From IMG/VR virus record IMGVR_UViG_3300035208_007487: a stretch of 64,000 nt of DNA; one strand, written 5' to 3'. Source of the stretch: a virus (taxonomy: Duplodnaviria > Caudoviricetes). The notes below the pieces were generated by a model that worked only from the letters and a program-made list of their open reading frames with translations, was not told the DNA's origin and did no database searches. This document shows, in pieces, positions 53,520 through 62,054 of this stretch. Position 1 is the first letter of the stretch. Every line of letters starts with the position of its first letter. The translations under genes were made by a program, and so were the position numbers.

Positions 53520-56495
53520 TTAAGAATAAGCAATTGTTTCAAAATTTTCTCTATTAATTAATGAATAGTCACTTTTGCCTCTGAATATGATTGGAGTATT
53601 TTGTTCCAATTCATCAGGTGATTGGGTTAATTTATTAACTATTTCTCTCATGGTTGGATCAGTTATCTTATCTAATCCACTTAATTCATTAGTTATTAAT
53701 CTCTTTTTATAGATTGGTTCATCATCAATATTTCCATAATAATAAGGACTATTAGCATAATATAATACTGATAATATAGCAGTGACTAAATCATCATGTG
53801 CATCGCCCAAAGCAGCATATGAATTTCCTTTTTTACCAAAAGTGCATAGTTCAGTTATAGTATTAATATCACATATTTTAAGTAAGCCACGCTCAATATA
53901 TACTTGTAAATAGATGCAAGCTTCCATTTTTCTATTGTGGGATAAGTTAAAACCTAATCCATGCTCATTCATATGAATTAAATTAGGATAGTTTTTATCA
54001 TAATGCAATCCAGTTATAATAGCACCACCGGCTTGTTCCATCGTTTCAACTATAATACCAGCATCATAATAAATTTTAGCAAGATAATATATTTTTTCAA
54101 TATAATTTTTTGGAATAATATCATTAGATTCATAAACAGCAACTTGTTCTATATCAGTATTTGATTTAACTAACCATACTTGGCTAACGCTATAATCTTG
54201 TTTAGTACCCATAGCGGGATCAACAGTTACAACATATTCATATCCCTTATCCTTATATTCCTGATAATTCATTGGATATTTAAATATTCGTAATCTGTCA
54301 TCTTCCAATATAGCAATAGGTGAAGCTACTGGCAACTTCTTTAAGAATCCTGCATCAATTAATGTAGCAACAGATCCTTGGAATTCACATTCATATTCTT
54401 GTTTGAATCGAACAATACCTATTTTATCTATTTCTGTTTTCTTCCATTCTTCGGTTCTTCCAGGAACTTCATCCCAAGCTATTTCTATAGTCCTAAAATC
54501 TTTAGAATCCATAGGTAGGCCGCTTTTAGCTTTATTTTCCGCATCAGTCCACATTTTCCAGAAATGATTAAGACCACGAGGGGTTTGAAACCCTAGTATT
54601 CCACCATATACAACAGAATGAGCCCATTTATCATTTTCATTGTCATTTAATGAAAAATCATATACTCTTTCTACTCCGCTATCTATATTAGTTATTTTAT
54701 CCCAAATTAAATCCTCTTGAACATTTTCCATAAATTTATTATATTCATTATTATTAATAATTAATGATTTTTTAATACCAAGCATTTTTTCTCTAGAAAA
54801 ATGTTTTAGATCTCTATGAATTCCAATATGACTTATCTCTTTTATGCCTAATTGTTTAATAATATTGTTTGAATAAGGAATTACATCTGCATTACTGCCA
54901 ATATGCTTAGTTGTTATACAATTTGATATTCTAGCTTGTTTTCTATTAAATCTAAATCCCACAATATTATAAAATTTTAAAGCGAATGAATTGTTCGCAT
55001 CAATCTTATAATAATTTGAACTAACTTTAACTAATTTAGTAGGGGGGGTTATACCTTCACTCCACGAAGTTAATATTCCTAAATTAAGTAATAGCATTCT
55101 AACTTGAATAGTTAATTCTTTAGATGCAAATCCGATAGATATTCTTGCTTTAGTTTTATGTGCAGTGCCATCTCCATCAAATAATCCTTGTAACATTGCT
55201 ATTATATTATCTCTAGACATTTCTAATAATTTGCTAGGTATTATTTTATTTTTTGCTTTTAGATTAATATTAAATCCTAGATATTCTAATATGGTTACTA
55301 AAGATTTAGAATATATTACATAGTGAAATTTATCAACTTTACGATATCTAAGTGATAACGTATTCAAACAATCGCTAACATCATCTCCACAAGATATTAC
55401 TGTTGAATAGCTTGCATAAGGCCTCATTCCTTTTCTGCTATATCCTTCTGCAATATACAATCCTAAGAAATATGCAAAATCTTTAGAAATATGATTCATA
55501 TTAAATAAATTGCTACCTGTTAAATTAAGCTCACTTTGGCTAATATTATCATTATTGCCCCAAATATTCATTCCATATTTTATTGATATATAATCCCCAA
55601 CTTCTAATTCTTTAGCTCTAAATATTCCATATACTCCATTTTTACATGCATAATATTTATGTTCTAATGAACTTTCAATGAATGAATGAGCTGAACTTAT
55701 TTGTTTAGTTTCTTTTTCACCATCATTATGCATCACAATACCTGTATTAAGATCTTTATTAAACCCTTGCACCTTATATTCAGGCACATAATATCCATAT
55801 CCATCTGGTCTATTATCATCAATAAAATTACTTATTTGTTTTAATCCATTATTAGTAAATATCCAAGTATTTTTTACAACACATGATGTAATAATAACTT
55901 TAGCAGTTGTCATTGACGAAACAGTTGGTATAACTGACGAAATAAATTCATTAGCAATATATGGTTCAACGAAAGCAAATTCATCCAAATATAAAAAATT
56001 ATTGGTAAATCCACGACCAGAATCTTCTTTTGTAGCTGAACATTCCATTCTAGATCCATTAGCAAATTCAATACTGCCCTGATTCCATTTTAATACTGGA
56101 ACTTGCAGCCATAATGGAAGCTCAATTATCATAGCCTTAATTCTTCTTAATTGCTCAGAAGACATTGATTTTTTATGAGCTAAAATAAGAGCGCTTTTGT
56201 TTGGATTGAATAATACATACCATACCATATATGCAGCTACCGTAATTGACTTACCACTCTGTCTAGGGAATTTAGCAATTAGATATGAATTTTCGTGAAT
56301 TGCTTTAATAAATTTTAATGAATATTCTCTAGGTTGAAAATTAATTAAACCCAAATCTCCATCTACAATTTTTATATAATGTAAAATAAAGTAAATAGGA
56401 TCTCGTACAATTTTACGGATCTCTTCTATTTGCCAATCTTCATATTCAGTTTCACCATCGTCTATTCCACGTAGACGAGGATTATTTAGATACAT
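53520..56495 (-). CDS. gp17: Large terminase subunit, T4 gp17-like, intein-containing
   Basis: YLNNPRL, PRQSGKS (Walker A), LYLDEFAF (Walker B), IITS|TPRG, FKQEYECEF, nuclease VDPAMG..DYS and HDDLV. Confidence 0.96.
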   Translation of the reverse strand: MYLNNPRLRGIDDGETEYEDWQIEEIRKIVRDPIYFILHYIKIVDGDLGLINFQPREYSLKFIKAIHENSYLIAKFPRQSGKSITVAAYMVWYVLFNPNKSALILAHKKSMSSEQLRRIKAMIIELPLWLQVPVLKWNQGSIEFANGSRMECSATKEDSGRGFTNNFLYLDEFAFVEPYIANEFISSVIPTVSSMTTAKVIITSCVVKNTWIFTNNGLKQISNFIDDNRPDGYGYYVPEYKVQGFNKDLNTGIVMHNDGEKETKQISSAHSFIESSLEHKYYACKNGVYGIFRAKELEVGDYISIKYGMNIWGNNDNISQSELNLTGSNLFNMNHISKDFAYFLGLYIAEGYSRKGMRPYASYSTVISCGDDVSDCLNTLSLRYRKVDKFHYVIYSKSLVTILEYLGFNINLKAKNKIIPSKLLEMSRDNIIAMLQGLFDGDGTAHKTKARISIGFASKELTIQVRMLLLNLGILTSWSEGITPPTKLVKVSSNYYKIDANNSFALKFYNIVGFRFNRKQARISNCITTKHIGSNADVIPYSNNIIKQLGIKEISHIGIHRDLKHFSREKMLGIKKSLIINNNEYNKFMENVQEDLIWDKITNIDSGVERVYDFSLNDNENDKWAHSVVYGGILGFQTPRGLNHFWKMWTDAENKAKSGLPMDSKDFRTIEIAWDEVPGRTEEWKKTEIDKIGIVRFKQEYECEFQGSVATLIDAGFLKKLPVASPIAILEDDRLRIFKYPMNYQEYKDKGYEYVVTVDPAMGTKQDYSVSQVWLVKSNTDIEQVAVYESNDIIPKNYIEKIYYLAKIYYDAGIIVETMEQAGGAIITGLHYDKNYPNLIHMNEHGLGFNLSHNRKMEACIYLQVYIERGLLKICDINTITELCTFGKKGNSYAALGDAHDDLVTAILSVLYYANSPYYYGNIDDEPIYKKRLITNELSGLDKITDPTMREIVNKLTQSPDELEQNTPIIFRGKSDYSLINRENFETIAYS
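54585..55883 (-). mobile_element. Intein with LAGLIDADG homing endonuclease (433 aa)
   Basis: Starts CVVKNTWI, block B SSLEH, LGLYIAEG and LQGLFDGDG, block F VYDFSL, ends ILGFQ followed by extein Thr; removing it restores IITSTPRG. Confidence 0.92.
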
Positions 56496-56504
56496 AATTA
56501 TTAT

Positions 56505-57293
56505 TTAGTTGAATTTACATTCATATTCTTTTTTAAATCTATTAATTCCTATCTTATTAATAGTTTTAGCTTTCCAACTATCATCTCTACCAGGAACATC
56601 GTTCCAATTTATACTTAATAGTTTAAATTTTCTATTAGAAACTTTATATCTATTATTACATAATTTCCAAAAATCATTAAATTTATTGGGAGTGGAATTT
56701 ATGATAACTTTTGCATTATGATTATAAGGTAAATATTCTGATAAAAATGTTTCACAATCAAAATTATCCCAATAAGCAAATTCATTTAAATAAAATATGT
56801 TAGGACTTAATCCCCTTAATGAAGTTAGATTTGCCGCAGTGACGATAGAAATAGATCCATTAGATAATTTAATGCTTTGCTCATTCCAAGTTAAAATGGG
56901 CGATTGCAACCATAATGGTAATTTCGATATCATGCTTTTAATTCTTCTTAGCTGTTCTTTTACTAATATTTTTTTAGAATCTATCAATACTATATTACTA
57001 TTATAATGAAACATTAAATACCATATTAAATAAGCATCACATATAAGTGATTTACCACTTTGTCTGGGGAATTTTAATATAGTGCTTAAATTATTATGAA
57101 TATGGTTTATTGCATCTAAAATATATTCTCTAGGCTGAATATTAATTAATCCCATATCACAATCTTCTATTTTAATATAATTTAATATAAAGTATGCAGG
57201 GGATTCTATACATTTTATTAATTCACCAATTTGCCATGAATCTAGTTTAACGTCATCTTTGTTGCCTCTAAGCAAAGGATTATTCAAATACAT
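56505..57293 (-). CDS. Terminase ATPase-domain-only paralogue (start revised to ATG 57293)
   Basis: MYLNNPLL, PRQSGKS, FYLNEFAY, INSTPNK, FKKEYECKFN-stop; collinear with the TerL N-terminal domain; TAAATA-N6-ATG. Confidence 0.88.
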   Translation of the reverse strand: MYLNNPLLRGNKDDVKLDSWQIGELIKCIESPAYFILNYIKIEDCDMGLINIQPREYILDAINHIHNNLSTILKFPRQSGKSLICDAYLIWYLMFHYNSNIVLIDSKKILVKEQLRRIKSMISKLPLWLQSPILTWNEQSIKLSNGSISIVTAANLTSLRGLSPNIFYLNEFAYWDNFDCETFLSEYLPYNHNAKVIINSTPNKFNDFWKLCNNRYKVSNRKFKLLSINWNDVPGRDDSWKAKTINKIGINRFKKEYECKFN

Positions 57294-57321
57294 ATCCAAT
57301 ATTTAGTCAAAAGATATTATA

Positions 57322-59313
57322 TTAAATTCCTAATCCGCTTCTAACTGAATTTGTTTTTGTTGTATTTAACTCTTTTAATTTATCTTTAAATGAATATCCA
57401 TACTTTTGGGTAAACAATTCTTCAATTTTAGCATATCTTTGAGCATATGGAATTTTCTTTAGGATAGATTCATTTTCTTTCATAATATCAGTCCATTTGT
57501 TTTTTAAGTCAACATATTGACTATCTATTCTAAAAGGTATTCCAGCAAAAGGTTTTTTGTCAGTAGATGTTCCTTTAGTAACTGGAGTATTCAAAGCATG
57601 CCCCCCATTTTTATTATTTCTAGCGGCCATTTGACTATTATAATATTCAAATTCTTCAATTAATGACTTATATAGCTGATCATTATTTGGAATACTCTCA
57701 AGATATGGTATTACTGTATTATTCAATTCATACCATATTACTCTAAGTTTATCACCATCATAATGATCTTTAACATATTCTAATAGCTTTTTAGTATTTG
57801 ATTTATTTTCTGTTTCATTATTTTGATTACTTTGCTCTTTAGGTAATTGTTTAAAACCATTAGCAACTGCTTTGATAAATGCTACATCAGATCCTTCATC
57901 AGATGAATTATCAATTACATCTAAGTAATCATTATTAATATCTGGAGAAGGGTTAGTGTCTAATTCTGGATCAGCCGGATTATATCCACTGATTTCTTTA
58001 GCTTTCCCAAATCCTAATGAATTATAAAAATAATCAGAAGTATGATTTAACATTTTAATAGTAGATTGATAAGGTCTTTTAATTTTTAATTTATCAGATG
58101 CTTTTAATAATTGCTTAGAAGTAACAACGGTTTCGCCATCATTACTAACAAATTTATCTAAGAATATTTCTAATTCAGAATATTCCTCCGAAGTCCCAAC
58201 TCTATTTGAATTATCTTCTGGGCTGAAATCTGGATTAAATCCAAACACTATATAAAAGCTTTTATCAGATAATACTTGAGGTTCGCTTAATACTGCTTCT
58301 AATAAAGCCTTATCAATTTCTTTACCTATCTTTTTAAGAATATTTTCTATTGGTTCAAATGTTGATTCATAGCTAGCACTTAACCCAATTAATTGTAAAG
58401 TTTTTTCTTTATTTAATACCTTATAAGTATCTTCAATTGATATATCACTATCCTCATTATCTGTATCGAATTCATTTATTGCATTAGATATTTCACTTAA
58501 TCTTTGTTGGGCTTCTTTACTATTATCAAATGAACTATCTATAAATTCTCTTGAAGTATTTACAACATAAAATGGTTTGATGTTATATGGTTTCCAATCA
58601 ATTGTAGTTGGATCACCTACTATTGAAAATAACTTAGTAGAATATTTTTGAACACTATAATTTTCTGCACCATATTCTTCGATTGAATTTAATCTATTCT
58701 TTGCAGATTCTTCATCTTTCCATCCACTATCTATTGATTTTTCTTCTATATTAATTACATAATATTTGTATTGTTCATTTGGATCATAATCTTCAGATTC
58801 AGCATCTTGAATTGCAGCCAATTCATCAGGTAAATATTTTTTATTAATATCTAATTCATTTAGATCTTCATTAGAAATTAAGCTATTAATTATATCATCA
58901 ATAGTTTCTTCTTTTTCTGGCTCGGCTTCTGGAGTATCTTCATTAGACAGAGGCTCACTTGGGGCTTGAGTTTTTTCAATTTCAGTATTTGGATTAGATT
59001 CATCCGAAGTATTAGCAGGAGATTCTAAAATTTTCTCATAATCTTTAGTTACAAATCCTAAAAATTTTGAAGCAATTCCATCCGGCTTATTTTCGCTACC
59101 ATCAATATATTCAAAGATTTTTTTAAAATCAATAATTTCTTTACGTTTAGATAATGTATCATCTACCCAATTAGCTTTTATATATACCTCAGTTTTACCT
59201 CTAGCCATCTCAATTGGAGCAATAGAGTTACTTAAATTAGCAGTAATAGATGGGTCTACTTCTTTCCAAGCTAGGTGCTCAAAATCAACTTCTAGCAATG
59301 ATTTTTTATTCAT
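57322..59313 (-). CDS. Hypothetical acidic protein with an internal repeat, candidate internal head protein
   Basis: 663 aa; LLE motifs; repeat YYVIN...IDSGW...AKNRL / FYVVN...IDSSF...AQQRL. Confidence 0.65.
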   Translation of the reverse strand: MNKKSLLEVDFEHLAWKEVDPSITANLSNSIAPIEMARGKTEVYIKANWVDDTLSKRKEIIDFKKIFEYIDGSENKPDGIASKFLGFVTKDYEKILESPANTSDESNPNTEIEKTQAPSEPLSNEDTPEAEPEKEETIDDIINSLISNEDLNELDINKKYLPDELAAIQDAESEDYDPNEQYKYYVINIEEKSIDSGWKDEESAKNRLNSIEEYGAENYSVQKYSTKLFSIVGDPTTIDWKPYNIKPFYVVNTSREFIDSSFDNSKEAQQRLSEISNAINEFDTDNEDSDISIEDTYKVLNKEKTLQLIGLSASYESTFEPIENILKKIGKEIDKALLEAVLSEPQVLSDKSFYIVFGFNPDFSPEDNSNRVGTSEEYSELEIFLDKFVSNDGETVVTSKQLLKASDKLKIKRPYQSTIKMLNHTSDYFYNSLGFGKAKEISGYNPADPELDTNPSPDINNDYLDVIDNSSDEGSDVAFIKAVANGFKQLPKEQSNQNNETENKSNTKKLLEYVKDHYDGDKLRVIWYELNNTVIPYLESIPNNDQLYKSLIEEFEYYNSQMAARNNKNGGHALNTPVTKGTSTDKKPFAGIPFRIDSQYVDLKNKWTDIMKENESILKKIPYAQRYAKIEELFTQKYGYSFKDKLKELNTTKTNSVRSGLGI

Positions 59314-59323
59314 GTGAATACCC

Positions 59324-59344
59324 TTAATAAATATTTATTAAATA
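59324..59344. promoter_or_regulatory. Divergent TAAATA promoters within an 18-bp palindrome
   Basis: TTAATAAATATTTATTAA (59324-59341) between ORFs 59313(-) and 59351(+). Confidence 0.6.
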
Positions 59345-62029: not shown

Positions 62030-62054
62030 ATGTATTATTTAGATATAAATTTTA

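What the first reader, a model, noticed from the sequence alone, without database searches (positions are those of the whole stretch)
56505..57305. Nuclease-less, Walker-B-mutant terminase ATPase paralogue next to the real TerL
Seen: a 262-aa ORF with its own TAAATA promoter, collinear with the TerL ATPase domain from MYLNNP to EYECxF and stopping exactly at the ATPase/nuclease boundary. Walker A (PRQSGKS) is intact, Walker B is LNEFAY versus LDEFAF, and the STP motif has no intein. It is well diverged yet uninterrupted, which argues for selection rather than decay. Inference, as alternatives: (a) a regulatory or dominant-negative subunit of the packaging motor; (b) a decoy or antagonist of host sensors that recognise the TerL ATPase domain (Avs/STAND NTPases are established terminase sensors); (c) a partner compensating for slow intein splicing.
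Basis: partly seen in the sequence, partly recalled or inferred. Interest (0 to 1): 0.75.

Follow-up and report, generated by a model that had tools for sequence, protein, structure and literature searches.

The report
Hypervariable inactive terminase ATPase copy
Just upstream of its DNA-packaging enzyme gene, an uncultured T4-like phage keeps a second gene that copies only the enzyme's ATP-binding half, with a crippled catalytic site. Selection preserves this copy, yet it differs at a third of its residues between otherwise identical phage genomes, which points to a binding or mimicry role in some evolutionary conflict rather than DNA pumping.

Summary
Window 56505-57293 (-) encodes a 262-aa protein collinear with the complete ATPase domain of the adjacent intein-bearing TerL. 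It is 48% identical and ends at the ATPase/nuclease hinge. Walker A is intact, Walker B has Asp->Asn, and there is no intein.

New here:
1. It folds as a T4 gp17 ATPase domain (pLDDT 92; TM 0.86).
2. It is intact in all 15 copies examined (window plus 14 contigs). All alleles keep Walker A and the Walker B Asn. dN/dS is 0.2-0.33.
3. It is a hot spot of polymorphism. Two alleles only 65% identical sit in genomes whose flanks are about 100% identical, and they co-occur in the same samples. dS peaks inside the gene, while the TerL N-extein shows only synonymous change.
4. Within one allele class, changes cluster in two small patches and are mostly amino-acid-changing.
5. The copy arose inside its own TerL's clade and evolves about 5x faster.
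6. Other marine T4-like lineages carry similar ATPase-only copies, often fully dead and some fused to an RHH domain.

Best reading: a non-catalytic TerL mimic under conflict-type selection. Its target is unknown. Compensation for slow intein splicing is disfavoured. Earlier notes of this scan record similar terL-adjacent copies in other phages.

The parts
56505..57293 (-). CDS of the ATPase-only TerL paralogue (262 aa, P0001; stop codon at 56505-57507 region is 56505-56507)
   Evidence: AF2 model with pLDDT 92.3, best PDB matches T4 gp17 ATPase domain 2O0J/2O0H
57300..57306 (-). CTAAATA late-type motif, six bases upstream of the paralogue ATG; conserved in all three haplotype classes although the surrounding bases differ
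57048..57068 (-). Walker A / P-loop, residues 76-82; intact in all alleles
56781..56798 (-). Walker B strand, residues 166-171. Asn170 (56784-56786) replaces the family-invariant Asp; the catalytic Glu171 is kept
56682..56699 (-). Coupling (C) motif region, residues 199-204. It carries no intein. The first Thr is replaced by Asn and the near-invariant Gly204 by Lys in all alleles. 31 of 48 nt match the spliced TerL homing site
57126..57137 (-). Variable patch 1, codons 53-56 (loop before the adenine-binding helix); polymorphic within allele class A
57000..57020 (-). Variable patch 2, codons 92-98 (end of the P-loop helix and the following loop); five different versions among seven haplotypes
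56502..56508 (-). CTAAATA motif of TerL. The paralogue's TAA stop (56505-56507) lies inside it. Nine in-frame bases separate this stop from the TerL ATG
53520..56495 (-). Cognate large terminase (991 aa, P0002) with a LAGLIDADG intein in the coupling motif (intein 54585-55883)
55200..57400 (.). Tract of raised between-genome divergence centred on the paralogue. Identity falls to 60-65% at 56800-57200, is 92-97% over the TerL N-extein and first part of the intein, and is about 100% outside the tract
57322..59313 (-). Upstream 663-aa acidic ORF (P0003) with no family match. It is syntenic in relatives and directly precedes terL in the relative that lacks the paralogue

Best explanation
The gene is real and maintained by selection. 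It arose by tandem duplication of the terL late motif plus the first ~270 intein-free codons. It encodes a complete gp17-type ATPase domain that still has its P-loop, so it probably still binds nucleotide. It cannot act as a packaging motor because it has no nuclease/translocation domain, has Asn at the Walker B Asp, and has two further changes in the coupling motif. It is made from the same late-type motif as TerL.

It most likely works by binding, as a non-catalytic mimic of the TerL ATPase domain. The population data point to a partner that itself varies, meaning an evolutionary conflict. My ranking of candidate partners, by inference only:
- A host factor that recognises the TerL ATPase domain, such as an Avs-type sensor (about 0.2 absolute).
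- A rival phage's or satellite's packaging machinery (about 0.1).
- An unknown partner (the remainder).

Shown here: fold, motifs, origin, purifying selection, hyper-polymorphism, patchy amino-acid polymorphism. Inferred: nucleotide binding without hydrolysis, action by binding, conflict as the driver.
For: Homology, fold and domain boundary.

Catalytic changes fixed in all alleles: D170N, G204K and T199N, with Walker A kept. The Walker B Asp is intolerant of even conservative change in T4 gp17 (PMC3012670).

Selection:
- The ORF is intact in the window and in all 14 related contigs examined (L001-L005, L008-L011, L015-L018).
- dN/dS is 0.33 for allele A vs B and 0.21 for A vs A'.

Polymorphism:
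- Flanking genes are 97.5-100% identical at the protein level, while the paralogue is 64.5% identical.
- Flanking DNA is about 100% identical, while the gene centre is 60-65% identical.
- dS is 0.72 across the paralogue, reaching 1.7-2.2 at codons 100-160. It is 0.31 in the TerL N-extein, where all 33 differences are synonymous. It is 0.085 in the intein, 0.012 in the nuclease domain and 0.005 in the upstream gene.
- Alleles A and B occur in the same samples.

Within class A:
- There are 6 nonsynonymous and 2 synonymous polymorphic codons, all in codons 53-56 and 87-98.
- The two patches reassort in all four combinations.
- The TerL N-extein of the same genomes has 0 nonsynonymous and 11 synonymous polymorphic codons (Fisher p = 0.001).

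Origin and rate: the paralogue clade (100/100 support) sits inside a 100/98 clade with its own TerL. Its stem is 0.89 changes per site against 0.16 for TerL.

The TerL ATPase domain has zero amino-acid differences in its N-extein between A- and B-bearing genomes. The variation therefore does not track TerL.
Against: - No binding partner was identified.
- The host is unknown, and no TerL-sensing system is known for it.
- No TerL-mimic decoy has been described. Literature searches found none.
- Only three allele classes were found in 5.8 billion protein clusters, so site-level selection tests are weak.
- The divergence is asymmetric. At 90 sites where A and B differ, A matches the TerL clade at 38 and B at 10. 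Relaxed constraint in B, or import from an unsampled lineage, could explain part of the signal.
- The locus lies next to an intein homing endonuclease. Nuclease genes are known to mark recombination boundaries in phages (PMC10448857, listed, abstract only).
- Related lineages fuse such copies to an RHH DNA-binding domain, which fits a packaging role better than a decoy role.
Confidence: 0.5

Rival explanations
1. Packaging accessory. The copy is a regulatory, assembly or initiation subunit of the terminase, with a TerS-like or dominant-negative, timing role. It would dock on TerL, the portal or DNA through the conserved C-terminal third. ATP binding without hydrolysis would serve as a switch.
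For: - The copy sits in the slot immediately upstream of terL, is co-oriented with it and has the same late motif.
- No gp16-type TerS lies next to terL or anywhere on contig C18.
- In the L020 clade, an ATPase-only TerL copy with a dead P-loop carries an N-terminal RHH DNA-binding domain. It is kept in 4 of 4 close relatives.
- The most conserved parts between alleles are residues 1-40 and 181-262 (75-76% identity, against 55% in the core).
- In L039 the second copy is reduced to a 95-aa ORF that keeps only the N-terminal tip and the C-terminal third.
- From memory, the T4 gp17 portal-contact helix-turn-helix (residues 333-352) maps to this C-terminal third.
Against: - The closest relative with the same synteny has no copy at all: a 700-aa ORF is followed directly by terL. 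The copy is therefore not a core requirement.
- A gp16-like TerS candidate (phrog_445, E = 1.5e-7) exists on contig C172. It occurs in the same samples, and in the one shared sample checked it has similar coverage to the paralogue contig (6.3 vs 6.7). The TerS role is therefore probably already filled.
- A subunit that works with an invariant TerL and portal is not expected to be the most polymorphic gene of the region.
- The window protein has no DNA-binding domain.
Confidence: 0.28
2. Largely functionless by-product. The copy is a leftover of a partial duplication, or of a formerly fractured (split-intein) terL. Its deep alleles would reflect a recombination hot spot next to the intein homing endonuclease, or imports from unsampled relatives, rather than selection on the protein.
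For: - Many relatives have terL broken at exactly this domain boundary by a split intein plus a homing endonuclease gene (P0006/L006, P0012/L024 and many short hits).
- The paralogue's stop codon is simply supplied by TerL's promoter motif.
- The raised divergence extends into TerL and the first part of the intein, and shows mosaic breakpoints.
- Copies are gained, shortened or lost among relatives.
Against: - dN/dS is 0.2-0.33, not about 1.
- An open frame of 262 codons at 27% GC is intact in all 15 copies examined (window plus 14 related contigs).
- Walker A and the Asn are invariant across alleles that have diverged to dS of 0.7 or more.
- The late motif upstream is conserved although neighbouring bases differ.
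- Such copies have been retained independently in at least three lineages.
Confidence: 0.12
3. Back-up ATPase that compensates for slow or incomplete splicing of the TerL intein.
For: Three of four lineages with such a copy (window, L021, L022) have the same intein in the TerL coupling motif. The copy itself is intein-free.
Against: - Walker B Asp->Asn and the coupling-motif changes make hydrolysis and force transmission unlikely.
- There is no nuclease or translocation domain to couple to.
- L020 and L038 have copies beside an intein-less TerL.
- L020's copies have lost the P-loop lysine altogether.
Confidence: 0.03

Closest known systems
N-terminal ATPase domain of T4-type large terminase (gp17 N360; Pfam Terminase_6N; PDB 2O0H/2O0J/3CPE)
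   Same: It has the same fold (TM 0.86-0.87, rmsd 2.6 A) and the same order of motifs. The P-loop, with its Arg and Gln, and the catalytic Glu are present. It ends at the same hinge.
   Different: - It is a stand-alone gene with no nuclease domain.
- Walker B Asp is Asn, the first Thr of the coupling motif is Asn, and a near-invariant Gly is Lys.
- It evolves about 5x faster than the cognate TerL.
- It is hyper-polymorphic within a population.
N-terminal halves of 'fractured' terL genes (split intein plus homing endonuclease; Dassa et al. 2009, PMC2677866, listed, title and abstract only)
   Same: Both are ATPase-only ORFs of about 300 aa that end at the same domain boundary in marine T4-like phages.
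   Different: The fractured halves end in a split-intein N-fragment. They are followed by an endonuclease gene and the nuclease half, and they keep the Walker B Asp-Glu. They are the only terL of their phage. The window gene has no intein fragment and sits beside a complete terL.
ATPase-only or pseudo-ATPase TerL copies beside terL in other uncultured T4-like phages found here (L020/L038/L039/L055 RHH-fused copies; L020 P0156; L021 P0148; L022 P0161)
   Same: They occupy the same slot upstream of terL, have the same end point and also evolve fast.
   Different: - They have independent or unresolved origins on the tree.
- Their motif status varies from intact (L021, L022) to fully dead (L020).
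- Some carry an RHH domain.
- The window family alone has the Asp->Asn state.
- Only the window family has enough related contigs to examine within-population polymorphism.
'Truncated large terminase' or nuclease-less TerL copies noted by earlier agents of this scan in other phage groups
   Same: The general arrangement is the same and the function is likewise unknown.
   Different: Those are unchecked AI notes on other genomes. I could not find the arrangement discussed in the 2015 Pseudomonas phage paper I read (PMC4309531) or elsewhere in the held literature.
Small terminase gp16 (Pfam DNA_Packaging PF11053; phrog_445/735)
   Same: It occupies the usual position directly upstream of terL.
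   Different: There is no sequence similarity. A separate gp16-like candidate exists elsewhere in the bin.

Membership tests
T4-type large terminase ATPase domain (Terminase_6N) | Profile match above the curated cut-off | tested here: met
   PF03237: 40.8 bits against a cut-off of 22. phrog_5989: E = 1.6e-41.
T4-type large terminase ATPase domain (Terminase_6N) | gp17 N-domain fold | tested here: met
   AF2 pLDDT 92.3. Foldseek match to 2O0J/2O0H with TM 0.86-0.87.
T4-type large terminase ATPase domain (Terminase_6N) | Walker A P-loop with Lys | tested here: met
   Residues 76-82 are present in all alleles.
Functional large terminase (packaging motor) | Walker B Asp followed by the catalytic Glu | tested here: not met
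   Asn170-Glu171 in all seven haplotypes. Asp is 100% conserved in 58 TerL rows.
Functional large terminase (packaging motor) | C-terminal RNase H-like nuclease/translocation domain | tested here: not met
   The ORF stops at the position of gp17 residue ~356-360, and the next gene is the complete terL.
Functional large terminase (packaging motor) | ATP hydrolysis and DNA translocation | not testable with these tools
   Requires biochemistry.
Fractured terL N-half (split intein) | Split-intein N-fragment after the last extein Glu, followed by an endonuclease gene and an intein-C/nuclease half | tested here: not met
   The window ORF ends four residues past that point with no intein fragment. 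Compare P0006, P0012 and P0023.
Small terminase gp16 | Match to PF11053 / phrog_445 / phrog_735 | tested here: not met
   No such match for P0001. The only match in the bin is on C172.
Diversity-generating retroelement target | A template repeat matching the variable region, adenine-specific differences, and a nearby reverse transcriptase | tested here: not met
   The substitution spectrum is not A-specific. The only copy of the gene's DNA in the bin is terL itself. The one RT, with its own repeat pair, is on another contig.
Anti-defence decoy of TerL sensors (Avs-type) | Binds or blocks a host TerL sensor | not testable with these tools
   The host and any sensor are unknown. No precedent was found in the papers searched.

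The most novel reading that the evidence does not exclude
The copy is a phage-encoded molecular mimic of the TerL ATPase domain. It would soak up or jam a host pattern-recognition receptor, or a rival element's factor, that targets terminase. Frequency-dependent selection would maintain its deep, co-occurring alleles. This would be a first example of terminase mimicry as counter-defence, and a population-genetic handle on terminase sensing in the sea.
Probability: 0.2. Interest if true: 0.85.

Novelty: new variant of a known kind. Interest (0 to 1): 0.62.

Why it matters
Large terminases are among the most conserved phage proteins, and bacterial immune sensors are known to recognise them. Here, a stand-alone copy of the motor domain is disabled at its catalytic site and kept by selection. 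It is also by far the most polymorphic gene in an otherwise clonal stretch of a wild phage population. That pattern suggests something in nature interacts specifically with the terminase ATPase fold and drives diversification.

Similar copies arose repeatedly in other marine T4-like phages and, according to this scan's earlier notes, in unrelated phage groups. Working out one case would therefore explain a recurrent, unannotated class of 'extra terminase' genes. It would also stop such genes being mis-annotated as terL.

Tried and rejected
- **Complex prediction.** I submitted the paralogue with the TerL N-extein and C-extein as separate chains. The result was 'no answer' (score 0.23 against a mark of 0.32). 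This gives no information either way.
- **DGR-type targeted mutagenesis.** Rejected: the substitution spectrum is not A-specific and no template repeat exists. The bin's only RT and repeat pair are on another contig.
- **Gene conversion from terL into allele A as the source of the patches.** There are no long identical runs. The best case is a 12-nt run in patch 1. Unresolved, but not the main signal.
- **TerS similarity of the upstream 663-aa ORF.** None found.
- **More alleles.** Two word-index protein searches, an exhaustive HMMER search of 1.84 billion representatives, and scans of IMG/VR and JGI metagenome contigs gave only classes A, A' and B.
- **Cultured relatives.** None found. The best isolate TerL is 46.6% identical (cyanomyoviruses), and no isolate showed the paralogue.
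- **Literature.** I found no paper describing a function for nuclease-less terL-adjacent copies or a terminase decoy.
- **Assignment of contig C172 (TerS candidate) to the same phage.** Only circumstantial: same samples and similar coverage. The bin holds at least two T4-like phages.
- **Mapping the variable patches on the model in 3D.** Not possible, because model coordinates are not exposed to the script box.

Full report
**1. What is there**

The window is part of a 212.8-kb, 29% GC contig (C18) of a T4-like phage. It was binned with 43% GC bacterial contigs. On the minus strand three genes follow each other:
- a 663-aa acidic ORF of no known family (57322-59313)
- the 262-aa ORF of the finding (56505-57293)
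- a 991-aa large terminase (53520-56495) carrying a LAGLIDADG intein

The 262-aa protein is 48% identical to TerL residues 1-217 and 44% identical to the stretch that follows the intein, so it is collinear with the spliced ATPase domain. It matches Terminase_6N and the PHROG terL families.

Alignment to gp17 shows an intact P-loop, Asn in place of the Walker B Asp with the catalytic Glu kept, and an uninterrupted coupling motif. The protein ends at gp17 residue ~356, the ATPase/nuclease hinge.

An AlphaFold2 model built on a 66-row alignment has pLDDT 92.3. Its best PDB matches are the T4 gp17 ATPase domain structures (TM 0.86-0.87, rmsd 2.6 A).

A CTAAATA box sits six bases before the ATG. 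The same box and spacing precede terL and 15 other ORFs of the window (17 in all at N6 spacing). The paralogue's TAA stop lies inside terL's own box, with nine in-frame bases to the terL ATG.

**2. Is it a live gene?**

Exact and near copies occur on 14 further contigs from independent metagenomes. All are 262 codons long and none is interrupted. There are seven nucleotide haplotypes in three classes:
- A: the window and four close variants
- A': 89% amino-acid identity to A
- B: 65% amino-acid identity to A

All classes keep the P-loop and the Walker B Asn. dN/dS is 0.33 for A vs B and 0.21 for A vs A'.

Against 58 TerL sequences, the window family has fixed changes at three positions that are 97-100% conserved in real terminases: Asp170Asn, Gly204Lys and the first Thr of the coupling motif. 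Allele B additionally has Lys at the conserved Arg160, ten residues before Walker B. From memory, this Arg corresponds to the trans-acting arginine finger of P74-26 TerL.

In T4 gp17 even Asp/Glu exchanges in Walker B abolish packaging (PMC3012670). The protein is thus under purifying selection, but not for motor activity.

**3. The unexpected part: a polymorphism hot spot**

Contig L001 carries allele B and has the same gene order as the window.
- Over 20 kb, every other shared protein is 97.5-100% identical. The paralogue is 64.5% identical.
- At the DNA level the upstream 2 kb has essentially no differences. Identity then falls to 60-65% in the middle of the paralogue, recovers to 92-97% across the TerL N-extein and the first part of the intein, and returns to about 100% beyond 55200.

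Synonymous divergence by region:

| Region | dS |
|---|---|
| Paralogue, whole | 0.72 |
| Paralogue, codons 100-160 | 1.7-2.2 |
| TerL N-extein (33 differences, all synonymous) | 0.31 |
| Intein | 0.085 |
| Nuclease domain | 0.012 |
| Upstream 663-aa gene | 0.005 |

Other contigs show different breakpoints, which indicates ongoing recombination. Alleles A and B occur in the same samples (ERZ15232962; ERZ28614596).

Within class A, the only variable codons lie in two patches, 53-56 and 87-98. Six of eight are amino-acid changing, and the two patches occur in all four combinations. The TerL N-extein of the same genomes has 11 synonymous and no nonsynonymous polymorphic codons (Fisher p = 0.001). 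Patch 2 has five versions among seven haplotypes.

The spectrum is not adenine-specific and there is no template repeat, so a retroelement is not the cause.

The divergence is asymmetric. At 90 sites where A and B differ, A agrees with the TerL clade at 38 and B at 10.

I read this as old alleles kept in a recombining population, with diversifying pressure on the nucleotide-binding core. Amino-acid identity between alleles is 55% for residues 41-180, against 75-76% for the two ends.

Import of allele B from an unsampled lineage cannot be excluded. However, no other carrier exists in 5.8 billion protein clusters, 1.84 billion representatives or the contig collections.

**4. Origin and relatives**

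In a maximum-likelihood tree of ATPase domains, the three allele classes form a clade (100/100). It lies inside a 100/98 clade with their own TerL and the TerLs P0012, P0013 and P0018. The paralogue stem is 0.89 changes per site, against 0.16 for TerL.

The layout fits a tandem duplication of the promoter plus the intein-free ATPase-coding part: both genes have the same motif, the same first six residues, and the stop sits in terL's promoter box.

- The phage of P0013 (TerL 60% identical, same intein) has a 239-aa ATPase-only copy in the same slot. It is only 26% identical to the window's, with Walker A and B intact.
- The phage of P0012 has the same synteny but no copy. Its terL is instead fractured at the domain boundary by a split intein and an endonuclease gene.

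Further away:
- L021 has a 264-aa copy with intact motifs, nine bases before an intein-bearing terL.
- L020 has two copies before an intein-less terL. One (270 aa) has lost both the P-loop Lys and the Walker B Asp-Glu. The other (320 aa) has a dead P-loop, a dead catalytic Glu and an N-terminal RHH domain.
- Among 80 IMG/VR loci around T4-like terL genes, only the three closest to L020 have such copies, and all three have the RHH type. The second copy there is 234 aa in L038. In L039 it is reduced to a 95-aa ORF that keeps the N-terminal tip and the C-terminal third.

L020's second copy groups (98/98) with its own TerL clade, and the RHH copies form a separate clade. ATPase-only copies next to terL are therefore rare overall but recurrent, fast-evolving, often catalytically dead and evolutionarily labile. 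Earlier agents of this scan noted comparable copies in other phage groups. I found no functional study in the literature.

**5. How it probably works**

Shown: a complete gp17-type ATPase fold; a preserved P-loop; catalytic and coupling residues changed and fixed; a late-type expression motif; purifying selection; extreme polymorphism next to an invariant TerL.

Inferred: the protein binds nucleotide but does not hydrolyse it usefully, and acts by protein contacts as a mimic of the TerL ATPase domain.

The TerL N-extein has no amino-acid differences between genomes carrying alleles that differ at a third of their residues. The variation is therefore unlikely to track TerL, and I favour an external, variable partner. 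A host sensor of the terminase fold is the most concrete candidate. Avs proteins bind TerL, and an ATPase-domain contact is predicted and supported for Avs2 (PMC13581612, PMC11564622). A rival phage or satellite is the next candidate.

The main rival is a packaging accessory or regulator. The gene's position, the RHH-fused relatives and the better conservation of the C-terminal third support it. Three points weaken it: the copy is absent from the nearest syntenic relative, a separate gp16-like gene probably exists, and the polymorphism is hard to reconcile with a core motor subunit.

A functionless relic next to a homing-endonuclease recombination hot spot is made unlikely by dN/dS, by the intact frames and by the recurrence in other lineages.

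Compensation for slow intein splicing is the least likely reading.

**6. Verdict**

The object is a new, well-documented variant of a little-known class of terL-adjacent, nuclease-less terminase copies. Its population-genetic signature is the new and most interesting element.

Noticed in passing
window-wide, e.g. 57300-57305, 56502-56507, 62036-62041, 59339-59344: A TAAATA box, often CTAAATA or ATAAATA, lies at a strict 6-base distance from the ATG of 17 ORFs of 50 aa or more (35 ORFs at 4-9 bases). With so short a spacing, the late transcripts may be leaderless, or the box may double as a translation signal.
   Followed up: partly
L121:2402-2692 (= G000:C189, about 19.4-19.7 kb), RT at C189:18530-19126: This looks like a genuine diversity-generating retroelement on another low-GC contig of the bin. 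A 331-aa reverse transcriptase sits next to two 121-nt repeats that are 79% identical. 24 of the 26 differences fall at T (A on the other strand) of one copy.
   Followed up: partly
L027:8659-9177 (= G000:C172, about 88.7-89.2 kb): A gp16-like small terminase candidate (172 aa, phrog_445, E = 1.5e-7) is not linked to terL. It lies among T4-like RNA ligase, polynucleotide kinase and CCA-adding enzyme genes. It occurs in the same samples as the paralogue contigs.
   Followed up: partly
G000 as a whole: The bin is chimeric. Most contigs are about 43% GC, but about 1.07 Mb of contigs are 24-31% GC. These include at least two T4-like phages (portal hits on C18 and on C143/C36).
   Followed up: partly
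L006:3189-5995; L024:92-3312: Relatives have 'fractured' terL genes. The ATPase half ends in a split-intein N-fragment, followed by a homing endonuclease gene (GIY-YIG or DUF7487) and then the nuclease half. The break is at the same domain boundary where the window paralogue ends.
   Followed up: partly
L020:7049-8011; L038:3352-4314; L039:3974-4933; L055:3871-4983: A conserved family of RHH-domain plus pseudo-ATPase TerL copies (dead P-loop) lies directly upstream of terL in one clade of uncultured T4-like phages. It is a possible TerL-derived substitute for a small terminase.
   Followed up: partly
L039:4926-5215: A 95-aa mini-ORF is a second TerL copy with an in-frame deletion of the whole nucleotide-binding core. 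It keeps only about 14 N-terminal residues and the C-terminal third.
   Followed up: partly
window 55200-55600 (first part of the TerL intein): Two intein haplotypes about 5% apart reassort independently of the paralogue alleles among contigs (L008/L009, L016 and L001 differ in their breakpoints).
   Followed up: no
window 57322-59313: A 663-aa highly acidic ORF has no Pfam or PHROG match. It is conserved (629-700 aa) in the slot upstream of terL in all relatives of this clade, including the one without the paralogue.
   Followed up: partly
L022:1895-1953: In the L022 relative, the paralogue is preceded by a terminator-like hairpin and a TATAAT-like box instead of the late TAAATA motif. Its timing of expression may therefore differ between lineages.
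   Followed up: no
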